Source: an uncultured Gammaproteobacteria bacterium
GTDB taxonomy: Bacteria > Patescibacteriota > Microgenomatia > UBA8517
Assembly (NCBI GenBank): GCA_964488535.1
Contig: CAZAUT010000003.1
Location: 2,232-66,231, forward strand
Reading direction: 5' to 3'
DNA: 64,000 nt
Part shown: in pieces, positions 29,701 to 47,531 of the stretch
How positions within the stretch are numbered: position 1 is the first letter of the stretch
Layout of the letters: each line of letters begins with the position of its first letter
The notes under the pieces: model-generated
Told to the model about the DNA's origin: nothing
Databases searched by the model: none
What the model saw: only the letters and a program-made list of their open reading frames with translations
Made by a program: the position numbers and the translations under genes

Positions 29701-29906
29701 TTACTAAAGCGTTGTATTAACTTCAATCTTGAAGTATAATTTACCCTGTTCTTTACCATAATTCCTAATTCATAATTCGTAATTCAGGAAAAATGTGCGG
29801 GGTAGTGTCCCGAAAAAATTTCGCTTTGCTCAATTCAACGGGACGAGCAGATGAAACTTCGCATACATTGGTAATTTTAATCGTATTTTAACAACTTAAT
29901 CATATG

Positions 29907-30227
29907 TGCGGGGTAGTGTACGGCTGCACGGAAGGCTCAAAATGGGCTTCCCGCTTAGCGGGATAAATTTGGCTATATCGGTGAAACCTAAGCTTTATAG
30001 AGTATGGCAACGCCGAGGAAAGACTACGTTCAAATTTTATGAAAGTAGAATCCGTAGAGACTATACGCCAAAGCACGTTCATATAAACTGAATGTACAAG
30101 ACATAGTCCGACACTCCCAAATACCTTTTGGTATTTGACAGTAAACTGTATAGTTCATTGCAAGAAATTGGAGATTACAGAATAAGCATAATCTTCCAGA
30201 TCAGGTTCAACTCCTGACCCCGCAACA
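29907..30227 (+). ncRNA. ssrA: tmRNA (SsrA)
   Basis: The 5' acceptor strand TGCGGGG pairs with the 3' CCCCGCA. The 3' T-arm CAGGTTCAACTCCTG is near-identical to the E. coli tmRNA T-arm GGGTTCAACTCCCGC. A candidate tag ORF at 30007-30042 (GCA ACG CCG AGG AAA GAC TAC GTT CAA ATT TTA TGA, giving ATPRKDYVQIL) aligns in position and codons with E. coli ANDENYALAA. Confidence 0.6.
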
Positions 30228-32462: not shown

Positions 32463-32534
32463 GTGGGCTGAGATGGGTTCGAACCATCGACATCTACTTT
32501 ATAAGAGTAGCGCTCTACCACTGAGCTATCAGCC
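32463..32534 (-). tRNA. tRNA-Ile (TAT anticodon)
   Basis: The minus strand reads GGGCTGATAGCTCAGTGGTAGAGCGCTACTCTTATAAAGTAGATGTCGATGGTTCGAACCCATCTCAGCCCA. The cloverleaf is complete, with anticodon loop CTTATAA. Confidence 0.7.
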
Positions 32535-32568
32535 CTTAAATTTATTGACATGTCAAACTCCGTTTGCC

Positions 32569-37568: not shown

Positions 37569-37982
37569 TTAATCCAAATTCGTTTTTAGTCCGATCTGTT
37601 TGAAATGGTGGTCAAATGTAAAAATCTCATCAAACCTGTATTTTTTAAATTGATAAACAATTGAACCGTCGGTAAATGATAATTTTTTGTCATCGTATTT
37701 CTTGAGTTCTTCGAACACAAAACTATTTTCCAATTCCGATATTTCCATTACCCGTAAATTAAGCATTGCCCCTTTGTTTACAGCATCGTTAAAATCAATT
37801 ACCGCATATAGACCGGCATCATAAATTAGACGGGTAAATACTTCAGACAATACCAAATTATTCGTAAAAAAAAGCGGGCGTACTTTCGTAATTATATTAA
37901 TATACTTCTTTGCCTGAAGATGGTTTATGTCATTTTTATTTTCCAAAGCAAGCCATGCACCGGAATCAATAAATATTTTCAT
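37569..37982 (-). CDS. vapC: PIN-domain toxin VapC
   Basis: N-terminal MKIFIDSGAWLAL acidic-residue pattern of the PIN domain. It overlaps the upstream RHH gene by 4 nt. Confidence 0.75.
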   Translation of the reverse strand: MKIFIDSGAWLALENKNDINHLQAKKYINIITKVRPLFFTNNLVLSEVFTRLIYDAGLYAVIDFNDAVNKGAMLNLRVMEISELENSFVFEELKKYDDKKLSFTDGSIVYQFKKYRFDEIFTFDHHFKQIGLKTNLD

Positions 37983-38293
37983 TTGTAATAAATTTCATCC
38001 ACATTCTCAGACAAATTTACTTTTTTTCTGCCTGTTGAAACAGAACCGATAATCTTCTCAAGCCATAAATAATCACTGGGAATTTTACGGCTGTTTAATG
38101 AAAGCATTTTCCCCACTCTGGAAGAAGCGCCATCTACTGCCTCTCTTATCACTTCCGACCTTGTAAATCCGATTAATTTTGACGCTTCGTCCAAAATCTT
38201 AACACTTTGCGGCTCCAAATATACCTGATACCTTTTCATATACATACACCATACCATAGGTGTATATAATAAGTCAATACACCCATTTGACAA
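37979..38293 (-). CDS. vapB: RHH/CopG-type antitoxin VapB
   Basis: MKRYQVYLEPQSVKILDEASKLIGFTRSEVIREAV ribbon-helix-helix pattern. The real start is probably the Met at ~38239. Confidence 0.55.
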   Translation of the reverse strand: MSNGCIDLLYTPMVWCMYMKRYQVYLEPQSVKILDEASKLIGFTRSEVIREAVDGASSRVGKMLSLNSRKIPSDYLWLEKIIGSVSTGRKKVNLSENVDEIYYK

Positions 38294-38699: not shown

Positions 38700-39236
38700 T
38701 CACTTTATCCACTTCTTTTCTCTAATCCCCTTTTCCCAATTCACCCATCTGGCCAATACAAACAAATAATCCGACAGGCGATTAAGGTATTTCAAAACCC
38801 CCGCCGGAACCTTTTCCGCCTCACTTAATCCCACCACTTCTCTCTCCGCTCTTCTGGCCAGTGTCCTTGCATACTGAAGCCTTGCTGCAACCGGACTTCC
38901 GCCCGGATAAATAAAATTTGAAAGTTTCGGCAGTATTTTATCGGTTTCGTCTATTTCCTCTTCCAATTTTCTTGTTTCTTTACTTTCTAATTTCAAATCT
39001 GATCCTGCTAAAATTGAACCCGTTGTCAGTAAATTATTTTGAACCAGCCTTAGTTTTACCTTCAATTTTTCATCAGAAGTTTCCGCTATAACAATTCCCA
39101 AAAAACTATCAATCTCATCAACCGCTCCGATTGCCCGGGTATTGCATGACGATTTTGAAACACGGACCGATTTTCCGTCAACTTTTCTGAAAAGTCCCGT
39201 TGTTCCGTCATCGCCGGTTTTTGTATAAATAACCAT
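38700..39236 (-). CDS. ATP:cob(I)alamin adenosyltransferase, PduO type
   Basis: N-terminus IYTKTGDDGTTGL and C-terminal RLSDYLFVLAR. Confidence 0.75.
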   Translation of the reverse strand: MVIYTKTGDDGTTGLFRKVDGKSVRVSKSSCNTRAIGAVDEIDSFLGIVIAETSDEKLKVKLRLVQNNLLTTGSILAGSDLKLESKETRKLEEEIDETDKILPKLSNFIYPGGSPVAARLQYARTLARRAEREVVGLSEAEKVPAGVLKYLNRLSDYLFVLARWVNWEKGIREKKWIK

Positions 39237-39281
39237 AAATATAAAGATATCAAGATATTAAGATATTAGAATACTACGATA

Positions 39282-39653
39282 TTACGAGTGGGAAAGCTTC
39301 TCGGTTGAACGAATAAGTCCGCCAAGTATAACCCCCGATTTTTCGGATTGTTTCATTATCTCTTCAAACCCTTCATTGGATAAGTATCCTAAATCCTTGG
39401 CAATTAACGACTGTGTTTGAACCTCTGAAAGTGAACCTCTGGCATCGAAATAGAAATTCAACCTGTCTTTGTAGTGGTATCTGGAGAATCCTTCTGCTAT
39501 ACAAGATTCATTGGAAACAACGGCACGTCTGATTTGTGAAGTCAATCCAAAAGTTTCCGACTTTGGAAAACTCCCGGAATACTTGTAAATCATAAGTGTT
39601 AACTTATGCGCCTCTTTCCAAGCATCCAAATCCTGAAATGTTTTTATTTTCAT
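39282..39653 (-). CDS. four-helix-bundle protein (Avd / 23S rRNA IVS family)
   Basis: LDAWKEAHKLTLMIYK..FPKSE..CIAEGFSRYHYKDR. Confidence 0.75.
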   Translation of the reverse strand: MKIKTFQDLDAWKEAHKLTLMIYKYSGSFPKSETFGLTSQIRRAVVSNESCIAEGFSRYHYKDRLNFYFDARGSLSEVQTQSLIAKDLGYLSNEGFEEIMKQSEKSGVILGGLIRSTEKLSHS

Positions 39654-39767
39654 TCTCCTAATATCTCAATATCCTAATATCGTAATATCCTAGTATCCCA
39701 GTATCTTTCTTTCTATCCTGTGCCCTCTCCTAATATCGTAATATCGTAGTATCCTAATACCGTTTCT
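39654..39767. repeat. tandem-repeat array, cctaatatc / gtaatatc family
   Basis: tcctaatatctcaatatcctaatatcgtaatatcctagtatcccagtatc ... ctcctaatatcgtaatatcgtagtatcctaataccg. Confidence 0.6.
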
Positions 39768-41927
39768 CTAAAGTTCGCATGTACTAAACCCGCACTTTTT
39801 GCATTTGAAGCATTTATTATCCCTGACCAGTAAAATATTACATGTGGGACATTTTCTCAATGAGGGAAGGGTTCTTTCCGACGACCCGAACTCAAAAACC
39901 TGGTTGTTTTTTGCCTTATCGCGGTAAACGGTAAGGCCTTTGCAACCCAGTTTCCAGGCCAAAATGTACGCCTGTTCGACATCGTCGGGTGTTGCGTGAG
40001 AAGGCATATTAATTGTTTTTGTTATCGCGTTGTCTGTCCACTTCTGAAAAGCAGCCTGCATTCTGATGTGATCGCGCCAGTCAATATCGTGTGCCACTTT
40101 AAAAACATTCCGAAGATGTTTCGGAATCTCGGTTATACCCTGCGCACTTCCATGATTCTGAACCACCTTTTGAATAAGACTGTCGCTGTAAACGCCGTAT
40201 TCTTTAAGCTTTCTCGTAAAAATGCCGACTGTGTTTTTTAACCGCATCCCGTCCAAGACGTTTTGTTCATATGCAAGTGCAAAAAAGGGTTCTATCCCGA
40301 AAGAAGTCTCACAAATGACTGCATTTCCGCTTGATGGCGGGAAAGTTAAGAGAGCTACATTTCTTGGCTTGTCCTTCCTTTCCGCCCAAATTGATTTATT
40401 AACAAGCGGAAATGCTCCCTTTTCTTTTGCCAAATGCACCGAAGCCTCAAAGCCCGACTGATACATCGTCTGCGTGACTTTTTCGGCTAGATTAAAGGCT
40501 TCGACACTGTCATAGGGTATTTCCATCATGGCAAGCGTTTCCGCCCAGCCGACACAGCCGATTCCGATCCTTCTGTGTTTTTTTACTGCCTCGGAAATTT
40601 CCTGTACCGGAAACCATGAAGCATCAATTACATTATCCATTAACCGCACCGCTGTCTTCATTGTCTTCTGCAATCCTTCAAAATCAAATCCGCCGTCCGG
40701 CGGACCATGTATCACAAATTTGGTAAAATTTATATATCCCAGATTACAGGACTCGTATGGATATAAAGGAACCTCTCCGCAGGGATTGGTCGTCATTAAA
40801 AGCCCCTGTTTTCCGAGAAGCGGATTGGATAGTGCCGTTCCTTTGTTTATTGCGGATAAATTAATAATTCCCGGATCTCCCGTTTGCCACGCCATTTGGG
40901 CCATTAGTTCAAGAATCGAATTTGCTTTAACTTTATTCACGACTTCACCCGTTCTTGGATTTATAAGGTCCCAGTTATCACCGTTTTGCGCTTTTTGCAT
41001 AAACTCATCGGTAACACCAACCGAAATGTTTGTTTTTGAAAGATAGCCGTCGTTTTGCTTCGAGGAAATAAAATTAAAAATATCGGGGTGGCTCGAATTC
41101 AATATTGCCATGTTTCCGCTTTCATATTTCCCCTCCTGTTTGAACAGGGATGTCATAAGATCAAACATTTCGATCAGTTTTACCGGCCCTGCAGCCAGGT
41201 TTGGAGCGCCCCCAACCGGATCTCCCTCGGGACGGATCATTGAGAAATTATAACCGCATCCCCCGCCGTGTTTTTTAATTAAAGTGGATTTGTGAAGAAT
41301 ATTGAAAATTGAATTAATATCATCCTCGATTGGCCAGACAAAACAATTAGCAAGCTGGGGAGATTTTTTTCCGGCATTGGCAAGCGTTCTTGTACCCGGA
41401 AGAAACTTGAAACTCATCATCAGATCAAGAAAGCGCTTGTTCCATAGACTTCTCTTTTCTTTTGTTTTTTCGACATCGGAAAGGCATTTTGCAACCCTTT
41501 CAAACATTTGCCGTGGTGTTTCCAAAATCTCCCCCTTCTCGTTTTTTTTAAGGTAACGTGACTTAAGAATGTATAAAGTATTGTAAGAAAGTCCAATATC
41601 GTCCTTCACCCCAAGCGATTCTTTATCCTGTCTCAAATGTTTTTTGTTCTCCCGGTATCTGATAAATTCTTTCGCTGTTTTTGCGTGACCGCGTTCAATA
41701 AGAACCTTTTCTACAATTTCGCCGATTTCCGAAGTTTTTATGTTTTCACCGACAGCGTACTTTTCCTTCAAAACAGTCAAAACCTCGTTCCTTAAGGAAA
41801 GTGCCGTCTTTTCGTCCTTTCCTCCGACATTCCGTGCTGCAAGAAAGATACTCCGGAAAATTTTCTCTCCGTCAAACGGCTCGTTTATTCCGCTCGCTTT
41901 GATAACGTATTTGGCTGGTTGCTTCAT
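39768..41927 (-). CDS. nrdJ: adenosylcobalamin-dependent (class II) ribonucleotide reductase with an N-terminal ATP-cone
   Basis: ATP-cone VIKASGINEPFDGEKIFRSI, NCFVWP, radical-site TTNPCGEVPL, and a C-terminal CxxC...CxxC zinc ribbon. Confidence 0.85.
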   Translation of the reverse strand: MKQPAKYVIKASGINEPFDGEKIFRSIFLAARNVGGKDEKTALSLRNEVLTVLKEKYAVGENIKTSEIGEIVEKVLIERGHAKTAKEFIRYRENKKHLRQDKESLGVKDDIGLSYNTLYILKSRYLKKNEKGEILETPRQMFERVAKCLSDVEKTKEKRSLWNKRFLDLMMSFKFLPGTRTLANAGKKSPQLANCFVWPIEDDINSIFNILHKSTLIKKHGGGCGYNFSMIRPEGDPVGGAPNLAAGPVKLIEMFDLMTSLFKQEGKYESGNMAILNSSHPDIFNFISSKQNDGYLSKTNISVGVTDEFMQKAQNGDNWDLINPRTGEVVNKVKANSILELMAQMAWQTGDPGIINLSAINKGTALSNPLLGKQGLLMTTNPCGEVPLYPYESCNLGYINFTKFVIHGPPDGGFDFEGLQKTMKTAVRLMDNVIDASWFPVQEISEAVKKHRRIGIGCVGWAETLAMMEIPYDSVEAFNLAEKVTQTMYQSGFEASVHLAKEKGAFPLVNKSIWAERKDKPRNVALLTFPPSSGNAVICETSFGIEPFFALAYEQNVLDGMRLKNTVGIFTRKLKEYGVYSDSLIQKVVQNHGSAQGITEIPKHLRNVFKVAHDIDWRDHIRMQAAFQKWTDNAITKTINMPSHATPDDVEQAYILAWKLGCKGLTVYRDKAKNNQVFEFGSSERTLPSLRKCPTCNILLVRDNKCFKCKKCGFSTCEL

Positions 41928-41936
41928 GTTGATAAT

Positions 41937-44243
41937 TTAAAGCCTGCACTTACTCCACCCGCATTCTTTGCAACTTCTACATCCTCCCTCAAATTCCAAA
42001 ACTCCTTTGCACTCCGGGCAGTTTTTTTCTTCTTTCTCCAATTCGGGCTTATACTTTTCACCGGTATTTATTACTTGATCCTCCTTGCTGCCATCTCTGT
42101 AAACCGTAATGCCCTTACATCCGAGTTTCCATGCCAGCATGTACGATTTCTCAACCTCCTCAACCGTCGCCGTGTTTCTGAAGTTTATGGTTTTTGACAC
42201 AGCATTATCGGCATATTTCTGAAACGCTGCCTGTATTCTTACATGCCACTGGGGATCAATGTCGTGTGTTGTAACAAAAACTTTTCTGATGTCACCGGGA
42301 AGTCCGGGTACATTTTGAATTGAACCGTGATTTTTGATAATTTTTTCGATCAACGTATCACTAAACAGATTTTTTTCTTTTAATATTTCCTCAAAAACCG
42401 GATTAATATAATAAAGTTTTCTGGTAGATCTATTCTTGTGATCCTCGTTATAGAAAGAACTCCTTGTATAAACAAGGGCAAAACTTGGCTCGACACCGCT
42501 TGTTGTATCTCCAATCATCGATACTGTACCTGTTGGAGCAATAGTAATCATCGTACAATTACGATATTTCTCTGCGGATCCTTTGTAGGTCGATATGTCC
42601 CAATTGGGAAATACACCGCGAGTTTTGGCTAATTCAAGCGAAGCTTCTTCGGCTTTGCGTTTAACAAATTTTGCAATCTTATCCGCAATCCGTACACCGT
42701 CGGGGCTGTTATAGGCAATATTCAATTTAAAAAGTGTTTCCGCAAAACCTACCATTCCCAAACCTATTTTCCTGTTTCCGTACTTTACGATTTTTTCGGT
42801 TTCGGGTAAAACATAGTAGTTTGTTTCAATCATATTGTCCAAAAAACGGACAAGTGTTTTAACCGTATCTCCCAACTCTTCCCAGTTAATTTCCCATCCG
42901 CCATTCTTCCTGATTAAATGGTTTGCTAAATGAACGGAAGAAAGGTTGCATGACTCGTAAGGTAACAAAGGTTGTTCACCACATGGATTCGTTGCATTTA
43001 ACACTCCAAGGCTTGGAGTGAAGTTATCCTCTTCCATCCGGTCTAAAAAGACCATCCCGGGATCGCCGGTTTTCCACGCATGTTCACAAATTTCATGAAA
43101 AAGTTTTCGGGCAGAAACTTTCTTCACCGCCACTCCATCCCGTGGATTCACCAGAGAAAACTTCTTATCAGCCACGACCGCTTCCATAAACTCATTTGTC
43201 GCACCGACAGAAATGTTAAAATTCTTCATATTTCCGTCTTCGTCCTTGATTTTAATGAACTCAAAAATGTCAGGGTGGTTAACATTTAAAATACCCATAT
43301 TTCCACCGTGTTTTTTGGATCCCTGCATAATTTTTGACAAGGCTGCACTGTAAACCTGCAAAAAGTCCACAGGCCCTGAAGCGGTATTTGGAACATTTCT
43401 TACCTTGTCACCCTTGAAACGTATATCACTGAAGTTAAATCCTGTTCCTCCAAAGTTTTTTTGAATGAGAGCTGCCTCGCCAAGTGTCTGGAAAATTTTA
43501 GAAATAGAATCTTCAATTTTCAAGACGAAGCATGGGGAAAGTTGCTGCAAACAATGGTCATTACCGGCTTCATACATAGCACTGGTAGTGCATATAAATT
43601 TAAACTTAACCATTTTATTAAAAAATACCTGTGCTGCCAATTCGACATCTTTTTCGTTACCCCAATTAATTTCTGTTTTGGCGATATATTTCGCAACTCT
43701 CCAGAAAATCTGTCCCGGAGTCTCTTCCGGCTTTCCGTCAGCACCCAACTTGGAACATCTGGCAACAAGGGTTGTCCTGGCATTGCCGGTCATTTCCGGT
43801 TCGCGGATGATAAATTCGTCTTTTTTTGACTGTTCCTTCCTTTCTTTGTATAAAATATAATATCTGGCCGTTTCGAAATAACCTTTCTGTGCAATGACAG
43901 GTTCAACAATGTTCCGGATTTCTAATGTGGAAATGACTGGTTTCTTAAAAATTAAAAGCTTGGATAGGACTTCTTTTAATATGGCGTTTGAGTCCTCTTT
44001 GGAATAGGACATCGTATCCTTGCCGGCTAAGATAATACTTTTTACTATTTTATTCCAAATGAATAATTGTGTCTGTCCGTCCGATTTTATTACTTTTTTT
44101 ATTTTTAATTTGGGTAAATTTGCTTTTATGTAATCTTTGTCTTTTTTCATATCAACACTCCGAATAACCGCATCCGTGACACGTCTTGCAGCCCATTTCG
44201 TGAACCAAAGTTGCGTTTCCGCAAGACGGACAAAAATCGGCAT
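41937..44243 (-). CDS. nrdJ: class II ribonucleotide reductase paralogue 2, with ATP-cone
   Basis: ATP-cone VIKSDGQTQLF, ATNPCGEQPL, and a C-terminal CPECK..CRSCKECG. The start is probably the Met at ~44153. Confidence 0.85.
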   Translation of the reverse strand: MPIFVRLAETQLWFTKWAARRVTDAVIRSVDMKKDKDYIKANLPKLKIKKVIKSDGQTQLFIWNKIVKSIILAGKDTMSYSKEDSNAILKEVLSKLLIFKKPVISTLEIRNIVEPVIAQKGYFETARYYILYKERKEQSKKDEFIIREPEMTGNARTTLVARCSKLGADGKPEETPGQIFWRVAKYIAKTEINWGNEKDVELAAQVFFNKMVKFKFICTTSAMYEAGNDHCLQQLSPCFVLKIEDSISKIFQTLGEAALIQKNFGGTGFNFSDIRFKGDKVRNVPNTASGPVDFLQVYSAALSKIMQGSKKHGGNMGILNVNHPDIFEFIKIKDEDGNMKNFNISVGATNEFMEAVVADKKFSLVNPRDGVAVKKVSARKLFHEICEHAWKTGDPGMVFLDRMEEDNFTPSLGVLNATNPCGEQPLLPYESCNLSSVHLANHLIRKNGGWEINWEELGDTVKTLVRFLDNMIETNYYVLPETEKIVKYGNRKIGLGMVGFAETLFKLNIAYNSPDGVRIADKIAKFVKRKAEEASLELAKTRGVFPNWDISTYKGSAEKYRNCTMITIAPTGTVSMIGDTTSGVEPSFALVYTRSSFYNEDHKNRSTRKLYYINPVFEEILKEKNLFSDTLIEKIIKNHGSIQNVPGLPGDIRKVFVTTHDIDPQWHVRIQAAFQKYADNAVSKTINFRNTATVEEVEKSYMLAWKLGCKGITVYRDGSKEDQVINTGEKYKPELEKEEKNCPECKGVLEFEGGCRSCKECGWSKCRL

Positions 44244-46662
44244 GACGGCTTAACAGAGACAATTGATTATTTCTGTCGTCACTCAGTCCTTTTGTACCGT
44301 AATTGTAAGACAGACCATTGCCGTTAATAAGTAATTTCTCCTGAACCGGCTGGTTATACTCCTTCTTGTTTTCCGGAATCATTCCAACATCCAGAGATAA
44401 GGCTCTGGCAATTGCATCCGGCAGTGATAATATTCTGTCCGATCCAAAACCAACACTTCTTGACCCGCCTATGCCTTGAAGTTGTTCTATTATAATTGCA
44501 GCTCTCTCTCTGCCGGTTAAGTTGCTGCCCAATCTTAAGGATTTGGAAATGACACGACCTAAGGCTTCCGCCATTGCCTGCACGTCACTGCCCGCCCTTC
44601 CGATATTAATGAATGTCTCAACCGGACTTCCCGTTTCATCATGATTTACAGTAATAAATGCTGTCCCCACAGGTGTTTTCAAACGGTAGGTTGAACCGGA
44701 CACTTTAATTGGCCGTTCCCAAATTGCTAAAAACGATTTTGATTCGCCGTTTTTGTATACTCCATTTTTTGATTCCGCCTTCTCCTCTTTCTTTTCATTT
44801 CTTATCAACGTCCCTTCCCTTGATCCTTCTCTCATGTAAGATATTCCCTTGCATCCGGTGTCGTAGGCAAGCATGTAAAGCTTCTTTACATCGTGCGCTG
44901 TGTGAGACTTCGGAGCGTTCACGGTCTTACTGATAGAAGAATCGGTATAGGTTTGTATTAATGCCTGAATTTTTACGTGCTCATCAGGGGATAAATTGTC
45001 GGCAGTTACAAAGTAGGACGGGATATTTTCCTTTCCGTTGTTTTCTATCCATTCCTGATAGAGCGGATGATACATCGTCCTCTCCCCCAACCGGTCTTTC
45101 TGAATATAGGAGAATGAGAAAACAGGTTCTATTCCCGAAGATACTCCTGCAAGAAGTGCTATTTTTCCGGTCGGAGCTTCCGTTGTCAGAAAACAATTTC
45201 TAATACCCTGACGGCGAATTTTTTGTCTGATCTCCTTCGGCAAATTTTTAATAAAACCACCCCGAAGAAAATTCTCTTTGTTGTAAGCAGGAAAAACACC
45301 CTTCTCTTTTGCTAAATCACTTGAGCAGTCATAAGATGTATCACGAAGGGTTTTGTAAATTTTTTCTATAAGTTTTAATGATTCTTCCGAGCCGTAGCGA
45401 ATCTTCAATTTAATGAGCATGTCGGCAAGTCCCATTGTTCCAAGACCAAGTCTTCTTTCTCTTTTTTGTGTCTCTTCGATTTCGGGGTAAAGATAATTTT
45501 CCGAATCAACTGCATTATCCAAAAATCTCACTCCCACTTTAATAGTCTTAGTAAAATCATCAAAGTCAAATACATCTCCGTTAACAAAGGCAGACAGATT
45601 AAGTGAACTTAAATTGCATACCCCCCAAGCCGGTAATCCCTGTTCACCGCATACGTTTGTTGCAATTACTTTTTCAAAATACCAGGAATTGTTCATATCA
45701 TTGTATCTGTCCATATACACAACACCCGGTTCGGCCGATTCCCAAGCCGATTCGCATATTCGGTCCCACAGCTCACGCGCTTTGATTGTTTTATAAATTT
45801 TTGTGGGATAACTTTTTCTTTTCCACTCGCTCAAATCGCCGCTCCATTCTTGTCTATACTTCTCAAAATCGGTATCCGGAAATTCCAAATGCCAGTCTTT
45901 GTCGTTTTTCACTGCCTCCATAAACGAGTCCGACAAACAGATGCTCAGATTGGCTCCGGCAATTTTTCCCGTTTCTTTCTTTATCGAAATAAATTCTTCA
46001 ATGTCGGGATGCCAATCCCAAAGCATTATCATTAACGCCCCGCGCCTTGTCCCTCCCTGCTGAATAATGTCATGAACGGCAACAGAATAAAGGTTTGCCC
46101 ATGAAACAGCACCCGAACTTGTTCCGTTAACGCTTTTTAAATATGATCCGTTTGGCCTGAGCGTGGAAATGTTGAAACCTACTCCTCCGCCCCGTGCGCT
46201 AATTTCCGTGACCTGCTCCAAAGTTTTTATAATTCCGCCTCTCGTATCCTGAGGGTTTGGTATAACAAAGCAATTAATCATTGTTGCATTGGAACCGCTG
46301 CCTGCTGCCGTCAAAAATCTTCCGGCCGGACAAAATTTAAAGTCCACCATGGCTTCATAAAAATTCTTTTCCCATACTTTTTTTTCTTTGGAGGTTTTTT
46401 CCGCTTGAGCAAGCGCAAAGGATACACGATGCCACATCTGTTCGGGGTATTTTTCCATTGGTTTTCCTTTCTCGTTTTTTAGAGAATATCTGTCAAGAAA
46501 CAACTGTTTTCTTATCCCCGTTAAGGAAGTGCCCTCATGAACTGTTACAAGATGACGAATACTGTTGTATTTTGAACCCAAAGTTTTTGATAACTTTTTT
46601 ATTTTCATAATTTTAAAATCACAAAGTACACGGGATAAATCGGGAAGAATGGCGGATAACAC
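44152..46662 (-). CDS. nrdJ: class II ribonucleotide reductase paralogue 3, no ATP-cone, long C-terminal extension
   Basis: NCFVIP, ATNVCGEQGL (Pro to Val in the NPCGE motif), and a C-terminal CPSCG..CKTCHGCG. The start is probably MKIKKLSK at ~46611. Confidence 0.8.
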   Translation of the reverse strand: MLSAILPDLSRVLCDFKIMKIKKLSKTLGSKYNSIRHLVTVHEGTSLTGIRKQLFLDRYSLKNEKGKPMEKYPEQMWHRVSFALAQAEKTSKEKKVWEKNFYEAMVDFKFCPAGRFLTAAGSGSNATMINCFVIPNPQDTRGGIIKTLEQVTEISARGGGVGFNISTLRPNGSYLKSVNGTSSGAVSWANLYSVAVHDIIQQGGTRRGALMIMLWDWHPDIEEFISIKKETGKIAGANLSICLSDSFMEAVKNDKDWHLEFPDTDFEKYRQEWSGDLSEWKRKSYPTKIYKTIKARELWDRICESAWESAEPGVVYMDRYNDMNNSWYFEKVIATNVCGEQGLPAWGVCNLSSLNLSAFVNGDVFDFDDFTKTIKVGVRFLDNAVDSENYLYPEIEETQKRERRLGLGTMGLADMLIKLKIRYGSEESLKLIEKIYKTLRDTSYDCSSDLAKEKGVFPAYNKENFLRGGFIKNLPKEIRQKIRRQGIRNCFLTTEAPTGKIALLAGVSSGIEPVFSFSYIQKDRLGERTMYHPLYQEWIENNGKENIPSYFVTADNLSPDEHVKIQALIQTYTDSSISKTVNAPKSHTAHDVKKLYMLAYDTGCKGISYMREGSREGTLIRNEKKEEKAESKNGVYKNGESKSFLAIWERPIKVSGSTYRLKTPVGTAFITVNHDETGSPVETFINIGRAGSDVQAMAEALGRVISKSLRLGSNLTGRERAAIIIEQLQGIGGSRSVGFGSDRILSLPDAIARALSLDVGMIPENKKEYNQPVQEKLLINGNGLSYNYGTKGLSDDRNNQLSLLSRHADFCPSCGNATLVHEMGCKTCHGCGYSEC

Positions 46663-46714
46663 CGGATTTTTCCCTGCGTTTTCCTGTCATAATCCTGTTT
46701 CTTCCTGTGTGCTT

Positions 46715-47155
46715 CTACTCTTTGATCGCGCGTGCAAAATCCTCCAAATCCTCAAACTGCAGATAAACGCTTGCAAACCGAAGCCACGCCACCTTGTCGA
46801 TTCTTTTTAATTTTTTCAGTATTGCAATACCTATAGCTTTACTGGAAACCTCCTCTTTTTCTTTTCTCAACATCTCCCTCTCCACCCTATCCACGATATC
46901 GTTAACCAAATCCATTGAAACGGGTCTTTTCTCAACGGCTCGTAATATTCCCTTTTTGATCTTCTCTCTGTCATAAGGTTCTCGCCTGCCGTCTTTTTTT
47001 ACAACCCACATTGCTGATCCGCCAATCTTCTCGTAAGTTGTAAATCTTTTTTTACATTTTAAACATTCCCTTCTTCTTCTCAAAGATTTTCCTTCATCAA
47101 CCATGCGCGACTCTAAAACCTGTGTATCGTTTGCTGTACAAAATGGACAACGCAT
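46715..47155 (-). CDS. nrdR: transcriptional repressor NrdR
   Basis: N-terminal zinc ribbon MRCPFCTANDTQVLESR...CLKCKKRFTTYE followed by an ATP-cone. Confidence 0.85.
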   Translation of the reverse strand: MRCPFCTANDTQVLESRMVDEGKSLRRRRECLKCKKRFTTYEKIGGSAMWVVKKDGRREPYDREKIKKGILRAVEKRPVSMDLVNDIVDRVEREMLRKEKEEVSSKAIGIAILKKLKRIDKVAWLRFASVYLQFEDLEDFARAIKE

Positions 47156-47531
47156 ACCTTAATTTATAAATTCTAAATCCTAAACAAATCGAAATTTTTC
47201 AATATCAAATGCATTTAACTTTTCTTTAAGTGAATTTTTATATTTGTTATTTTGTATTTGTTTAGAATTTAGGGTTTAGTGCTTAGAGTTTGCTTGGATT
47301 TCATTCAAGCTTTTCATATATGAAAACGAAAAGTACTACCCGTTGTACTGGTTGTGATGTTCATACACTACCTGTCTTTAGTCAACTATAAGTAACTGTA
47401 TCAAATTACGGCATTTTCCGCACGCCATGAAGCTGAAAATATGTCAATTACCGAAAATTCATGTGGAATTATTATAAGATTAACGCCATATACTCCGAAG
47501 CATGATGATAGACATTCCTCAAAGAAATAAT

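What the first reader, a model, noticed from the sequence alone, without database searches (positions are those of the whole stretch)
38700..47155. nrdR, three tandem divergent class II RNR paralogues, and a PduO-type adenosyltransferase in one locus
Three full-length NrdJ-like genes sit head to tail. Two carry ATP-cones and one does not. One has NVCGE in place of NPCGE and a long C-terminal extension. All three keep the radical Cys/Glu and end in CxxC..CxxC ribbons. NrdR is directly upstream, and an AdoCbl-forming adenosyltransferase is directly downstream, separated by an Avd-like gene. Triplication with retained catalytic residues suggests sub-functionalisation, such as substrate class, allosteric control or hetero-oligomers, and not decay. 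The adjacent cofactor-maturation enzyme makes the locus self-contained for B12-dependent dNTP synthesis.
Basis: partly seen in the sequence, partly recalled or inferred. Interest (0 to 1): 0.6.

Follow-up and report, generated by a model that had tools for sequence, protein, structure and literature searches.

The report
Three-paralogue B12 ribonucleotide reductase operon
A small-genome Woesebacteria (CPR) bacterium keeps three anciently diverged vitamin-B12-dependent ribonucleotide reductase genes in one NrdR-controlled operon with a B12-activating enzyme; all three look functional, and one has a rebuilt substrate-selecting loop, which hints at a division of labour not yet described for this enzyme class.

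Summary
On the minus strand, 38700-47155 holds nrdR, three full-length class II RNR genes (R1, R2, R3), a 23S-rRNA-IVP-family gene and a PduO-type adenosyltransferase. All are tightly packed behind a conserved two-box NrdR operator.

The three RNRs are 31-39% identical. They are not a recent triplication or an assembly artefact: they fall in three separate clades, each with 100% bootstrap support.
- R1 is the usual Microgenomates NrdJ, with an IscU-like/TSCPD domain and a zinc finger.
- R2 belongs to a Patescibacteria-wide lineage.
- R3 is an isolated Woesebacteria-only clade.

The same three-gene operon occurs in at least six species-level relatives, including a complete genome. Two-gene forms (a canonical NrdJ plus R3) appear more common in a small sample.

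All three keep the catalytic Cys/Asn/Cys/Glu/Cys set, the effector-site residues and the C-terminal zinc finger, and all are under strong purifying selection. NVCGE is a common local variant and has no special meaning.

The real oddity is R3. The otherwise invariant loop-2 arginine (E. coli R298, T. maritima R207) is Tyr in 127 of 128 orthologues, and the phosphate-binding APTGS motif is PPSSGN. R3 was never the only NrdJ in 13 loci.

Natural NrdJ-NrdJ fusion proteins in other CPR lineages hint at hetero-dimers. I found no literature on any of this.

The parts
47333..47385 (-). Promoter and NrdR operator. It holds a TTGAC -35-like element (47385-47381), NrdR box 1 (about 47380-47365, TAAAGACAGGTAGTGT), a 16-nt linker, and NrdR box 2 (about 47348-47333, GTACAACGGGTAGTAC).
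   Evidence: The composite pattern occurs 15 times in 1.2 Mb of window plus loci, and every time it lies 70-230 nt upstream of nrdR on the same strand. Box-to-box register is 31-32 bp in 13 of 14 loci. This matches the published architecture of two 16-bp boxes with a 15-16 bp linker (PMC13584703 abstract). The pattern was derived from these same sequences, so the test is partly circular.
46715..47155 (-). nrdR, the transcriptional repressor of RNR genes (Zn-ribbon plus ATP-cone with the canonical VKKDGRRE motif).
   Evidence: TIGR00244 scores 191.6 bits against a cut-off of 124.65, with PF22811 and PF03477. It is syntenic in nearly all related loci.
44152..46662 (-). nrdJ paralogue R1 (836 aa). 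It has no ATP-cone. Catalytic residues are C131, N336, C338, E340 and C349. Loop 2 is QQGGTRRGALM (aa 201-211). The IscU-like/TSCPD domain covers aa 665-756 (window 44395-44670) and the C-terminal zinc finger aa 811-831 (44170-44232).
   Evidence: Its orthologue is the only NrdJ in the nrdR-nrdJ-pduO operon of Levybacteria, Gottesmanbacteria and other Microgenomates. The R1 clade has bootstrap 100.
41937..44150 (-). nrdJ paralogue R2 (737 aa). The ATP-cone covers aa 18-106 (window 43833-44099), with IKSDG in place of K-R-[DN]-G. Catalytic residues are C207, N388, C390, E392 and C401. Loop 2 is MQGSKKHGGNM (aa 275-285). The zinc finger covers aa 711-730. Its ATG lies 1 nt after the R1 stop codon, with a GGAG 7 nt upstream.
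   Evidence: The R2 clade has bootstrap 100 and includes NrdJ of WWE3, Pacebacteria and other Patescibacteria at 51-64% identity.
39768..41927 (-). nrdJ paralogue R3 (719 aa). The ATP-cone covers aa 6-96 (window 41640-41912), with IKASG. Catalytic residues are C195, N381, C383, E385 and C394. Loop 2 is non-canonical, KQEGKYESGNM (aa 263-273, window 41109-41141), with Y268 at the position of T. maritima R207 / E. coli R298. PPSSGNA (aa 530-536) replaces APTG[ST][IV]S. The zinc finger covers aa 693-712.
   Evidence: The clade is isolated: at least 68% identity inside it and at most 45% to anything else among 1.84 billion representatives. Bootstrap is 100.
39231..39764 (-). IVS-like cassette. It holds a 23S_rRNA_IVP-family four-helix-bundle ORF (39282-39653) bracketed by mutually inverted arrays of 8-nt-period GATATTAG-type repeats (39231-39286 and 39648-39764).
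   Evidence: PF05635 scores 109 bits and TIGR02436 100.8 bits, while the Avd models score below cut-off. The inverted repeats have 50-nt arms at 76% complementarity and a 24-nt core at 96%. A 65%-identical orthologue sits at the same position in L031 with a 25-nt inverted repeat of the same motif. The cassette is absent from most relatives.
38700..39236 (-). PduO-type ATP:cob(I)alamin adenosyltransferase (178 aa, N-terminal TKTGDDGTT motif).
   Evidence: PF01923 scores 166.9 bits and TIGR00636 163.7 bits against a cut-off of 108.45. It lies downstream of the last nrdJ in nearly all related loci. In L032 a non-homologous CobA/BtuR-type adenosyltransferase occupies the same slot.

Best explanation
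This is a chromosomal operon of a Candidatus Woesebacteria (CPR/Patescibacteria) genome, repressed by NrdR. It co-expresses three functional dimeric-type adenosylcobalamin-dependent ribonucleotide reductases of three ancient NrdJ lineages, together with the PduO adenosyltransferase that converts salvaged cobalamin into their AdoCbl cofactor.

Shown:
- Gene content and tight spacing.
- A conserved two-box operator upstream of nrdR.
- Intact catalytic, effector-site and C-terminal redox residues in all three.
- Strong purifying selection on each.
- Recurrence of the operon in related species.
- Separate phylogenetic origin of the three.

Inferred:
- The base operon is nrdR-nrdJ-pduO, as found in most Microgenomates. 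Extra NrdJ lineages were added between nrdJ and pduO.
- The paralogues divide the work of dNTP supply. They differ mainly in loop 2, the element that couples the allosteric specificity site to substrate choice, and in N- and C-terminal accessory domains.
- R1 looks like a general-purpose enzyme and R2 is nearly canonical.
- R3 is a specialised accessory reductase. It is still built for radical chemistry, but its substrate base/phosphate recognition is rebuilt: R207 to Y, a loop-2 net charge of about 0 instead of +4, and APTGS changed to PPSSGN. It always accompanies a canonical NrdJ.

Whether the paralogues act as separate homodimers or as mixed dimers is unresolved.
For: - Domain and family assignments.
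- 31-39% pairwise identity.
- Organism and synteny.
- The three-gene operon is in L001/CP065002.1 (a complete genome), L005, L007, L024 and L025. Shared contig sizes point to about 8 more.
- Single-gene and two-gene variants.
- Three clades, each with bootstrap 100, and no R2+R3 clade.
- R3 is isolated at 45% identity or less to everything else.
- Residue conservation: of 103 positions that are at least 88% invariant in 67 diverse NrdJ, R1 departs at 7, R2 at 6 and R3 at 17. C134, N320, C322, E324, C333, D141 and R171 are kept in all three, and K158 is K in R2 and R3 but R in R1.
- YESGNM is present in 127 of 128 R3 orthologues and FPPSS[GS]NA in 123 of 128.
- pN is 0.16-0.21 against pS of at least 0.78 for all three.
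- Operator.
- The loop-2 Arg contacts the base and the beta-phosphate, and R298A is essentially inactive (PMC4728125).
- Adenosyltransferase coupling appears independently with a CobA-type enzyme.
Against: - No expression or activity data exist for any copy.
- AdoCbl dependence is inferred from family membership and gene neighbourhood only.
- Loss of the loop-2 Arg inactivates E. coli RNR, so R3 might not reduce nucleotides in the normal way.
- The ATP-cones of R2 and R3 lack the Arg of the K-R-[DN]-G motif. The one class II ATP-cone studied showed no activity regulation (PMC9669993), so regulatory differences are speculative.
- I could not check the rest of the genome for other RNR classes.
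- Operon status rests on spacing alone. The promoter/terminator scan was uninformative.
Confidence: 0.7

Rival explanations
1. The paralogues assemble into mixed (hetero-dimeric) class II RNRs. The two protomers contribute different loop 2 and specificity-site halves, giving two non-equivalent active sites. The separate genes here would be the unfused version of the NrdJ-NrdJ fusion proteins seen in other CPR lineages.
For: - In-frame fusions of two complete NrdJ catalytic units exist. Each unit has the C134-like Cys and the N-x-C-x-E...C finger, and there is one shared C-terminal TSCPD domain and zinc finger.
- They occur in several independent assemblies: P0538 (1495 aa), P0544 (1476 aa), P0546 (1445 aa), P0364 (1351 aa, no internal stop in L032) and P0363.
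- The N-terminal half is sister to the R2 clade. The C-terminal halves form their own clade with a non-canonical loop 2.
- The theme of a canonical plus a non-canonical loop 2 recurs: X+R3, the fusion halves, and the three barrels of L032.
- R3 is never the only NrdJ in 13 loci.
- R1 and R2 are spaced for translational coupling.
- The AF2 model of fusion P0215 has pTM 0.82 across both halves.
Against: - The window has three paralogues, an odd number.
- Each has its own zinc-finger redox tail and a complete effector site, so each could work as a homodimer.
- The fusion partners are not orthologues of R1 or R3.
- There is no physical interaction data.
Confidence: 0.25
2. R3 (and possibly R2) is a catalytically inactive pseudo-enzyme that acts as a regulatory or scaffolding partner, or as a nucleotide sensor. 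Only R1 makes dNTPs.
For: - R3 lacks the loop-2 Arg, whose Ala mutant is inactive in E. coli and lethal in yeast (PMC4728125).
- R3 has changed the invariant T491/G492/S495 phosphate-binding motif and 17 of 103 invariant positions in all.
- It always co-occurs with a canonical NrdJ.
Against: - All five catalytic residues, the effector-site residues and the C-terminal CxxC..CxxC redox finger are essentially invariant across about 128 R3 orthologues. A non-catalytic protein should not show this.
- R3 evolves as slowly as R1 and R2.
- The substitutions are fixed and specific (Y-E-S, P-P-S-S), as expected for a changed function and not a lost one.
Confidence: 0.12
3. The extra copies are functionally redundant xenologues picked up by horizontal transfer, in transit between gain and loss. 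This is the null model proposed for RNR paralogy in PMC3019208.
For: - The three copies come from different lineages.
- Copy number at the locus varies among relatives (1, 2 or 3), and the middle gene belongs to different R2 subclades in different genomes.
- RNR paralogy is common (PMC3019208).
Against: - The same three-gene order is kept across genomes whose synonymous sites are saturated, with equal and strong constraint on each copy.
- These are roughly 1-Mb reduced genomes.
- R3 is highly conserved (at least 68% identity) across more than 120 clusters and keeps lineage-specific fixed changes.
Confidence: 0.1

Closest known systems
Thermotoga maritima NrdJ (dimeric class II RNR; PDB 1XJE and related entries)
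   Same: It is the best solved-structure match for the two paralogues searched against PDB, R3 (E 5e-95) and R1 (2e-73); R2 was not searched. It shares the catalytic C134/N320/C322/E324/C333 and the effector residues D141/K158/R171. R1 has a nearly identical loop 2 (QQGGTRRGALM against KQGSRRRGALM).
   Different: T. maritima has one NrdJ. Here there are three lineages in one operon. R2 and R3 add ATP-cones, and R1 adds an IscU-like domain. R3 replaces R207 with Tyr and APTGS with PPSSGN.
Streptomyces-type nrdRJ operon (nrdR co-transcribed with a single nrdJ and auto-repressed through paired NrdR boxes)
   Same: nrdR is the first gene of an nrdJ operon. Two 16-bp NrdR-box-like elements lie 31-32 bp apart at the promoter.
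   Different: That the Streptomyces operon has one nrdJ and no adenosyltransferase rests on my own knowledge; the papers listed were not read beyond their abstracts. Here there are three nrdJ genes plus pduO. Box 1 is only half-palindromic and overlaps the -35 element.
[quoted passage not shown] 2022, PMC9669993; Loderer et al. 2017)
   Same: R1's C-terminus (TSCPD/IscU-like domain, then CxxC..CxxC) fits the described architecture. The zinc finger of R2 and R3 is the type found in 71% of dimeric class II RNRs.
   Different: R1's IscU-like domain lacks the cysteines of the TSCPD motif (LSLPD). These features are ordinary and are not the novelty.
Thermoplasma acidophilum NrdJ and other ATP-cone-bearing class II RNRs (11.3% of class II)
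   Same: An N-terminal ATP-cone on a dimeric NrdJ. R3's nearest outside relatives include archaeal (Bathyarchaeota) ATP-cone NrdJ at about 40% identity.
   Different: Related sequences keep K-R-[DN]-G in the cone, whereas R2 and R3 do not. The function of class II cones is unknown.
Pseudomonas aeruginosa split NrdJa/NrdJb, and genomes with several RNR classes
   Same: More than one nrdJ-derived gene side by side, or several RNRs kept in one genome for different conditions.
   Different: NrdJa/b are two pieces of one enzyme. Multi-class genomes combine different radical chemistries. Here three complete enzymes of the same class sit in one operon.

Membership tests
Class II (AdoCbl-dependent, dimeric) ribonucleotide reductase NrdJ | RNR alpha barrel that scores above the curated NrdJ model cut-off and better than the class I model | tested here: met
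   TIGR02504 scores 576, 611 and 600 bits for R1, R2 and R3 (cut-off 400). TIGR02506 NrdE_NrdA scores 347, 302 and 329 bits (cut-off 341). R1 is marginally above the class I cut-off but scores far better as NrdJ.
Class II (AdoCbl-dependent, dimeric) ribonucleotide reductase NrdJ | Thiyl-radical Cys on the finger loop within N-x-C-x-E, plus the redox Cys pair (T. maritima C134/C333) | tested here: met
   R1 has C131, N336, C338, E340, C349. R2 has C207, N388, C390, E392, C401. R3 has C195, N381, C383, E385, C394. NVCGE in R1 belongs to the non-NP minority of class II finger motifs (172 of 3347 sequences; PMC9669993) and is common in this lineage.
Class II (AdoCbl-dependent, dimeric) ribonucleotide reductase NrdJ | Allosteric specificity site of the dimeric type (T. 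maritima D141, K158, R171) and canonical loop 2 with Q203 and R207 | tested here: inconclusive
   D141 and R171 are kept in all three; the K158 position is K in R2 and R3 and R in R1. Q203 is kept in all three. R207 is R in R1, K in window R2 (R in most R2 orthologues), and Y in R3, invariant in 127 of 128 orthologues. The feature is met for R1 and R2 and not met for R3 at R207.
Class II (AdoCbl-dependent, dimeric) ribonucleotide reductase NrdJ | Uses adenosylcobalamin as radical generator and needs no NrdB or NrdG partner | not testable with these tools
   The evidence is indirect. An adenosyltransferase gene closes the operon here and in relatives, and a CobA-type enzyme does so in L032. The ORFs scanned around the locus gave no NrdB, NrdD or NrdG hit. 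The rest of the genome was not seen.
Class II (AdoCbl-dependent, dimeric) ribonucleotide reductase NrdJ | C-terminal Cys pair or zinc finger for re-reduction of the active site | tested here: met
   CxxC..CxxC lies at the extreme C-terminus of all three and in 117/120, 30/32 and 56/56 orthologues of R3, R2 and R1. The architecture is described in PMC9669993.
NrdR repressor and NrdR-box operator | Zn-ribbon plus ATP-cone protein above the equivalog cut-off, with paired 16-bp boxes separated by 15-16 bp at the nrd promoter | tested here: met
   TIGR00244 scores 191.6 bits against 124.65. Paired boxes with 31-32 bp register are found only upstream of nrdR across 1.2 Mb. A strict consensus search with up to 3 mismatches found nothing in the locus: box 2 keeps the CwA-N4-TwG core, and box 1 keeps only the right half. 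Binding was not tested.
PduO-type ATP:cob(I)alamin adenosyltransferase | PF01923/TIGR00636 domain above cut-off, with the N-terminal ATP-binding motif | tested here: met
   TIGR00636 scores 163.7 bits against 108.45, and PF01923 has E 5.7e-49. The TKTGDDGTT motif at aa 5-13 was read; its role in ATP binding is from my own knowledge.
Avd (accessory variability determinant of diversity-generating retroelements) | Scores above the bAvd / DivGenRetAVD cut-offs | tested here: not met
   PF22296 bAvd scores 23.1 bits (cut-off 40) and NF033474 scores 24.8 bits (cut-off 80). None of the neighbouring ORFs scanned against Pfam gave a reverse-transcriptase hit. The gene is a PF05635 / TIGR02436 four-helix-bundle protein.
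Functional (activity-regulating) ATP-cone | Canonical nucleotide-binding residues, including the K-R-[DN]-G hairpin | tested here: inconclusive
   PF03477 is above cut-off for R2 (51.5 bits) and R3 (59.5 bits). The Arg is replaced (R2 IKSDG, R3 IKASG). It is never R in 128 R3 orthologues, whereas the NrdR of the same genome and related NrdJ keep K-[KR]-[DN]-G. The assignment of ligand contacts is from my own knowledge.

The most novel reading that the evidence does not exclude
CPR bacteria have split the single, allosterically reprogrammable class II RNR into sets of non-equivalent protomers that work as hetero-dimers. These are covalently fused in some Parcubacteria and are separate co-translated genes in Woesebacteria. 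In this reading R3 is a new NrdJ subclass. Its active site lacks the universal arginine latch and has a rebuilt phosphate-binding loop. It would accept a different substrate form, for example a Mg-bound or differently phosphorylated nucleotide or a restricted base set, and would not act as a general reductase.
Probability: 0.25. Interest if true: 0.8.

Novelty: new variant of a known kind. Interest (0 to 1): 0.55.

Why it matters
RNR is the only route to DNA building blocks. Textbook RNRs use one enzyme whose specificity is reprogrammed by allosteric effectors through loop 2 and a conserved arginine.

A lineage with roughly 1-Mb genomes that cannot make nucleotides de novo (my own knowledge of CPR biology) spends about 7 kb on three class II RNRs. 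One of them has replaced that arginine while keeping all the radical chemistry. This suggests another way to balance dNTP pools: several specialised catalytic subunits, possibly mixed dimers.

It also offers natural material for open questions about class II RNRs: what their ATP-cones and IscU-like tails do, how loop 2 encodes specificity, and whether hetero-dimeric or fused alpha subunits exist. In addition, it marks AdoCbl salvage as a dependency of these symbionts.

Tried and rejected
- A strict NrdR-box consensus search (ACACWATATATWGTGT, up to 3 mismatches) gave one chance-level hit outside the locus. The operator was found only by comparing upstream regions across loci.
- An exact look-up of R3 on assemblies found nothing.
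- The metagenome scan with R2 returned only 4 loci.
- The viral-contig scan with R3 returned none, and the best tblastn match in phage genomes was 38% identical. I therefore dropped a phage origin for R3.
- The promoter/terminator scan was at chance level and shows no internal terminators in the intergenic gaps.
- tblastn of the MazG, NUDIX, DUF6580 and DUF4430 genes next to pduO in L001 found no counterparts in the window.
- Literature searches for CPR, Woesebacteria or Patescibacteria combined with RNR or NrdJ, and for class II hetero-dimers, gave nothing relevant.
- I predicted the structure of a natural fusion (P0215) to see whether its halves form an RNR-like dimer. The model is confident (pLDDT 86.9, pTM 0.82), but the coordinates are not exposed, so the interface could not be examined.
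- dN/dS could not be given as a ratio because synonymous sites are saturated.
- I rejected an assembly artefact (31-39% identity, and the operon is present in a complete genome).
- I rejected recent tandem duplication (three deep clades).
- I rejected NVCGE as a class-Ø-like or degenerate motif (it is common in orthologues, and class Ø has NVCLE).

Full report
**What is in the window**

The region 38700-47155 carries six genes in a row on the minus strand.
- nrdR is at 46715-47155.
- Three ribonucleotide reductase alpha genes follow: R1 (44152-46662), R2 (41937-44150) and R3 (39768-41927).
- A small four-helix-bundle gene is at 39282-39653.
- An adenosyltransferase gene is at 38700-39236.

Pfam and NCBIfam confirm each assignment.
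- NrdR scores 191.6 bits on TIGR00244.
- All three RNRs pass the NrdJ equivalog TIGR02504 at 576, 611 and 600 bits (cut-off 400).
- R2 and R3 have N-terminal ATP-cones.
- R1 has none, but carries a TSCPD domain before its C-terminal CxxC..CxxC.
- The last gene is a PduO-type ATP:cob(I)alamin adenosyltransferase (TIGR00636, 163.7 bits).
- The 'Avd-like' gene is a PF05635 23S-rRNA-IVP family member and fails both Avd models.

NCBI's own gene calls for the source contig (70,961 bp) match these gene limits. Gaps between genes are small: 52 nt (nrdR-R1), 1 nt (R1-R2), 9 nt (R2-R3), 114 nt and 45 nt.

**Not an artefact and not a recent triplication**

The copies are only 31-39% identical.

The organism is a Candidatus Woesebacteria (Microgenomates, CPR), judged from named close homologues and conserved flanking synteny: class A PBPs, a HEPN-like gene, an Rce1-like gene and DUF5667 upstream, and a DUF8128/TraG-like gene downstream.

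In a neighbour-joining tree of 98 NrdJ sequences, R1, R2 and R3 each fall in a clade with 100% bootstrap support. R2+R3 never group together.
- R1 is the orthologue of the only NrdJ in the nrdR-nrdJ-pduO operon of Levybacteria, Gottesmanbacteria and other Microgenomates.
- R2 belongs to a lineage spread through Patescibacteria at 51-64% identity.
- R3 forms an isolated clade. Its members are at least 68% identical to one another. Nothing else among 1.84 billion representatives exceeds 45%. Its nearest outside relatives include archaeal ATP-cone NrdJ.

**Distribution of the arrangement**

The same nrdR-R1-R2-R3(-pduO) order occurs in L001/L002 (complete genome CP065002.1), L005, L007, L024 and L025. 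Matching contig sizes across the three homologue tables point to about eight more genomes.

Other Woesebacteria show different forms.
- Some have R1-R2 only (L006, L019).
- More often there is a two-gene form. A fourth lineage, X, precedes R3. X is a TSCPD type with a fully canonical loop 2 (KQGGKRRGANM). This form is in L003, L004 and L028-L031.
- Among seven R3 orthologues picked only for long contigs, six loci were X+R3 and one had three genes.

In all 13 R3-bearing loci examined, R3 is accompanied by a canonical NrdJ.

**Function-relevant residues**

I aligned the paralogues against T. maritima NrdJ, the best solved match for R1 and R3. All three keep C134, N320, C322, E324 and C333. They keep the effector-site residues D141 and R171, with K or R at the K158 position, and the terminal zinc finger.

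NVCGE in R1 is a neutral local variant. It is present in 40 of 120 R3 orthologues and 5 of 56 R1 orthologues. NPCXE predominates in class II, and class Ø uses NVCLE (PMC9669993).

R1's long C-terminus is the IscU-like domain plus zinc finger already described for class II RNRs.

Against the orthologous operons of L024 and L005, each paralogue shows pN of 0.16-0.21 while synonymous sites are saturated (pS at least 0.78). All three are therefore under similar, strong purifying selection.

**The distinctive paralogue**

Loop 2 is specific to each paralogue and conserved within each.
- R1 has QQGG[ST]RRGALM.
- R2 has xQG[GSA]K[KR]HGGNM.
- R3 has [RK]Q[EQD]G[KR]YESGNM.

I defined 103 positions that are at least 88% invariant in 67 diverse NrdJ. 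R1 departs at 7 and R2 at 6, mostly conservatively. R3 departs at 17. The R3 changes include:
- R207Y, at a position 100% invariant elsewhere;
- G204E and G209S;
- the APTGxxS motif changed to PPSSGNA (T491S, G492S, S495A, A489P);
- F300N and D302S.

These changes are fixed. YESGNM occurs in 127 of 128 R3 orthologues and FPPSS[GS]NA in 123 of 128.

The arginine is the equivalent of E. coli R298 and yeast R293. It stacks on the base and contacts the beta-phosphate. R298A is essentially inactive and R293A is lethal in yeast (PMC4728125).

R3 therefore keeps the radical machinery but has rebuilt the part that grips the base and phosphates. This pattern fits a changed function better than a lost one.

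The ATP-cones of R2 and R3 lack the Arg of the K-R-[DN]-G hairpin that NrdR and related NrdJ keep. The role of class II cones is unknown in any case.

**Regulation**

The upstream regions of nrdR across loci share a composite element: TTGAC, then a 16-bp box ending in TAGTGT, a 15-16 bp linker, and a second box of the form CACTA-N4-TAGTG.

The composite occurs 15 times in 1.2 Mb and always lies 70-230 nt upstream of nrdR. Box register is 31-32 bp in 13 of 14 cases. This matches the published NrdR operator layout (PMC13584703). In the window it lies at 47333-47385. The pattern was derived from these sequences, so the count is supportive and not independent.

**Cofactor coupling**

pduO closes the operon in almost every relative. 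In L032, from a different CPR lineage, a non-homologous CobA/BtuR-type adenosyltransferase takes the same place. This supports a functional link between the nrdJ genes and AdoCbl formation.

The locus is not self-contained. It has no cobalamin uptake, corrinoid reduction or protein reductant genes. Relatives carry varied insertions between nrdJ and pduO, including MazG, NUDIX, small toxin-antitoxin-like ORF pairs and a kinase-like ORF (assigned by eye where no Pfam hit was on record).

**Hetero-oligomers**

While collecting homologues I found proteins with two complete NrdJ catalytic units in one reading frame.
- They are P0538 (1495 aa), P0544 (1476 aa), P0546 (1445 aa), P0364 (1351 aa) and P0363 (1600 aa, with a Ham1 domain between the units).
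- Fragments of the same architecture are P0151, P0154, P0157 and P0215.
- They come from NCBI, ENA, JGI and Logan assemblies, some labelled Doudnabacteria or Andersenbacteria.
- The fused ORF in L032 has no internal stop.
- The N-terminal unit lacks its own zinc finger, and in two of the fusions it groups as sister to the R2 clade.
- The C-terminal units form a separate clade (bootstrap 97), have a non-canonical loop 2 without Q203, and carry the TSCPD domain and zinc finger.

L032 as a whole reads nrdR - NrdJ - fused NrdJ-NrdJ - adenosyltransferase. That is again three barrels with three different loop 2 sequences.

By gene-fusion (Rosetta stone) logic, this suggests that different NrdJ protomers can work in one complex. 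An AF2 model of fusion P0215 is confident across both halves (pTM 0.82). I could not inspect the interface.

This is indirect evidence, and it concerns other lineage pairs. The window's paralogues each look self-sufficient.

**Verdict**

The locus is an NrdR-controlled operon for three functional, anciently diverged class II RNRs plus the AdoCbl-forming enzyme. It is conserved in a Woesebacteria subclade.

Most individual features are ordinary: the zinc finger, the IscU-like tail, the ATP-cones, NVCGE, and nrdR and pduO adjacency.

Three things are new, as far as the searchable literature shows.
- Several same-class paralogues are stably maintained in one operon of a minimal genome.
- The R3 subclass has its loop-2 arginine replaced.
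- Related fused double NrdJ proteins exist.

I rate this a new variant of a known kind, of moderate to good interest for RNR biochemistry and CPR biology.

Noticed in passing
window 39231-39764: The 23S_rRNA_IVP-family ORF (39282-39653) is bracketed by mutually inverted arrays of 8-nt-period GATATTAG-like repeats (50-nt arms at 76% complementarity, a 24-nt core at 96%). This resembles the stem of an rRNA intervening sequence. A 65%-identical orthologue at the same position in L031 has a 25-nt inverted repeat with the same motif. It could be a mobile cassette or an RNase III processing site between nrdJ and pduO.
   Followed up: partly
L032:6001-10056; also P0538, P0544, P0546, P0363, P0151, P0154, P0157, P0215: These are natural in-frame fusions of two complete NrdJ catalytic units with a single C-terminal TSCPD domain and zinc finger, found in other CPR lineages. 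L032 reads nrdR - NrdJ - NrdJ::NrdJ - CobA/BtuR-type adenosyltransferase, with a dCMP deaminase upstream and two NDK genes downstream.
   Followed up: partly
window 29907-30226 (+): The Rfam group I intron hit (29891-30132) lies in the anticodon loop of a tRNA-Leu(CAA) gene. ARAGORN finds this gene only when long introns are allowed; the intron is 249 nt.
   Followed up: partly
window 32463-32535 (-): There is a tRNA-Ile with anticodon TAT (UAU). To my knowledge most bacteria instead decode AUA with a lysidine-modified CAU tRNA, so AUA decoding here may not depend on TilS.
   Followed up: no
L001:12157-14748: In the complete Woesebacteria genome CP065002.1, MazG-like and NUDIX genes sit between R3 and pduO. 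DUF6580 (membrane) and DUF4430 genes follow pduO. From memory, DUF4430 is transcobalamin-like, which would suggest a cobalamin-uptake pair. No counterparts exist in this window.
   Followed up: partly
L020, L021, L022 (R1-type match spans about 3.5 kb); P0193, P0207, P0223, P0237, P0240, P0344: Many CPR NrdJ genes are interrupted by inteins (PF14528/PF14890 Hint and LAGLIDADG domains, proteins of 1000-1250 aa). The window's three copies have none.
   Followed up: no
window 37569-38293 (-): Two small overlapping ORFs (137 and 104 aa) lie between pduO and the DUF8128/TraG-like gene. They have no Pfam hit and are absent at this position in relatives. Their layout resembles a toxin-antitoxin pair, and a similar small-ORF pair sits between nrdJ and pduO in L012.
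   Followed up: no
L001/L019 middle nrdJ (P0180, P0216) versus window R2: The middle gene of the operon belongs to different R2 subclades in different Woesebacteria (51% identity to window R2, while R1 and R3 stay at 64-70%). This suggests replacement of the middle paralogue or a deep split.
   Followed up: partly
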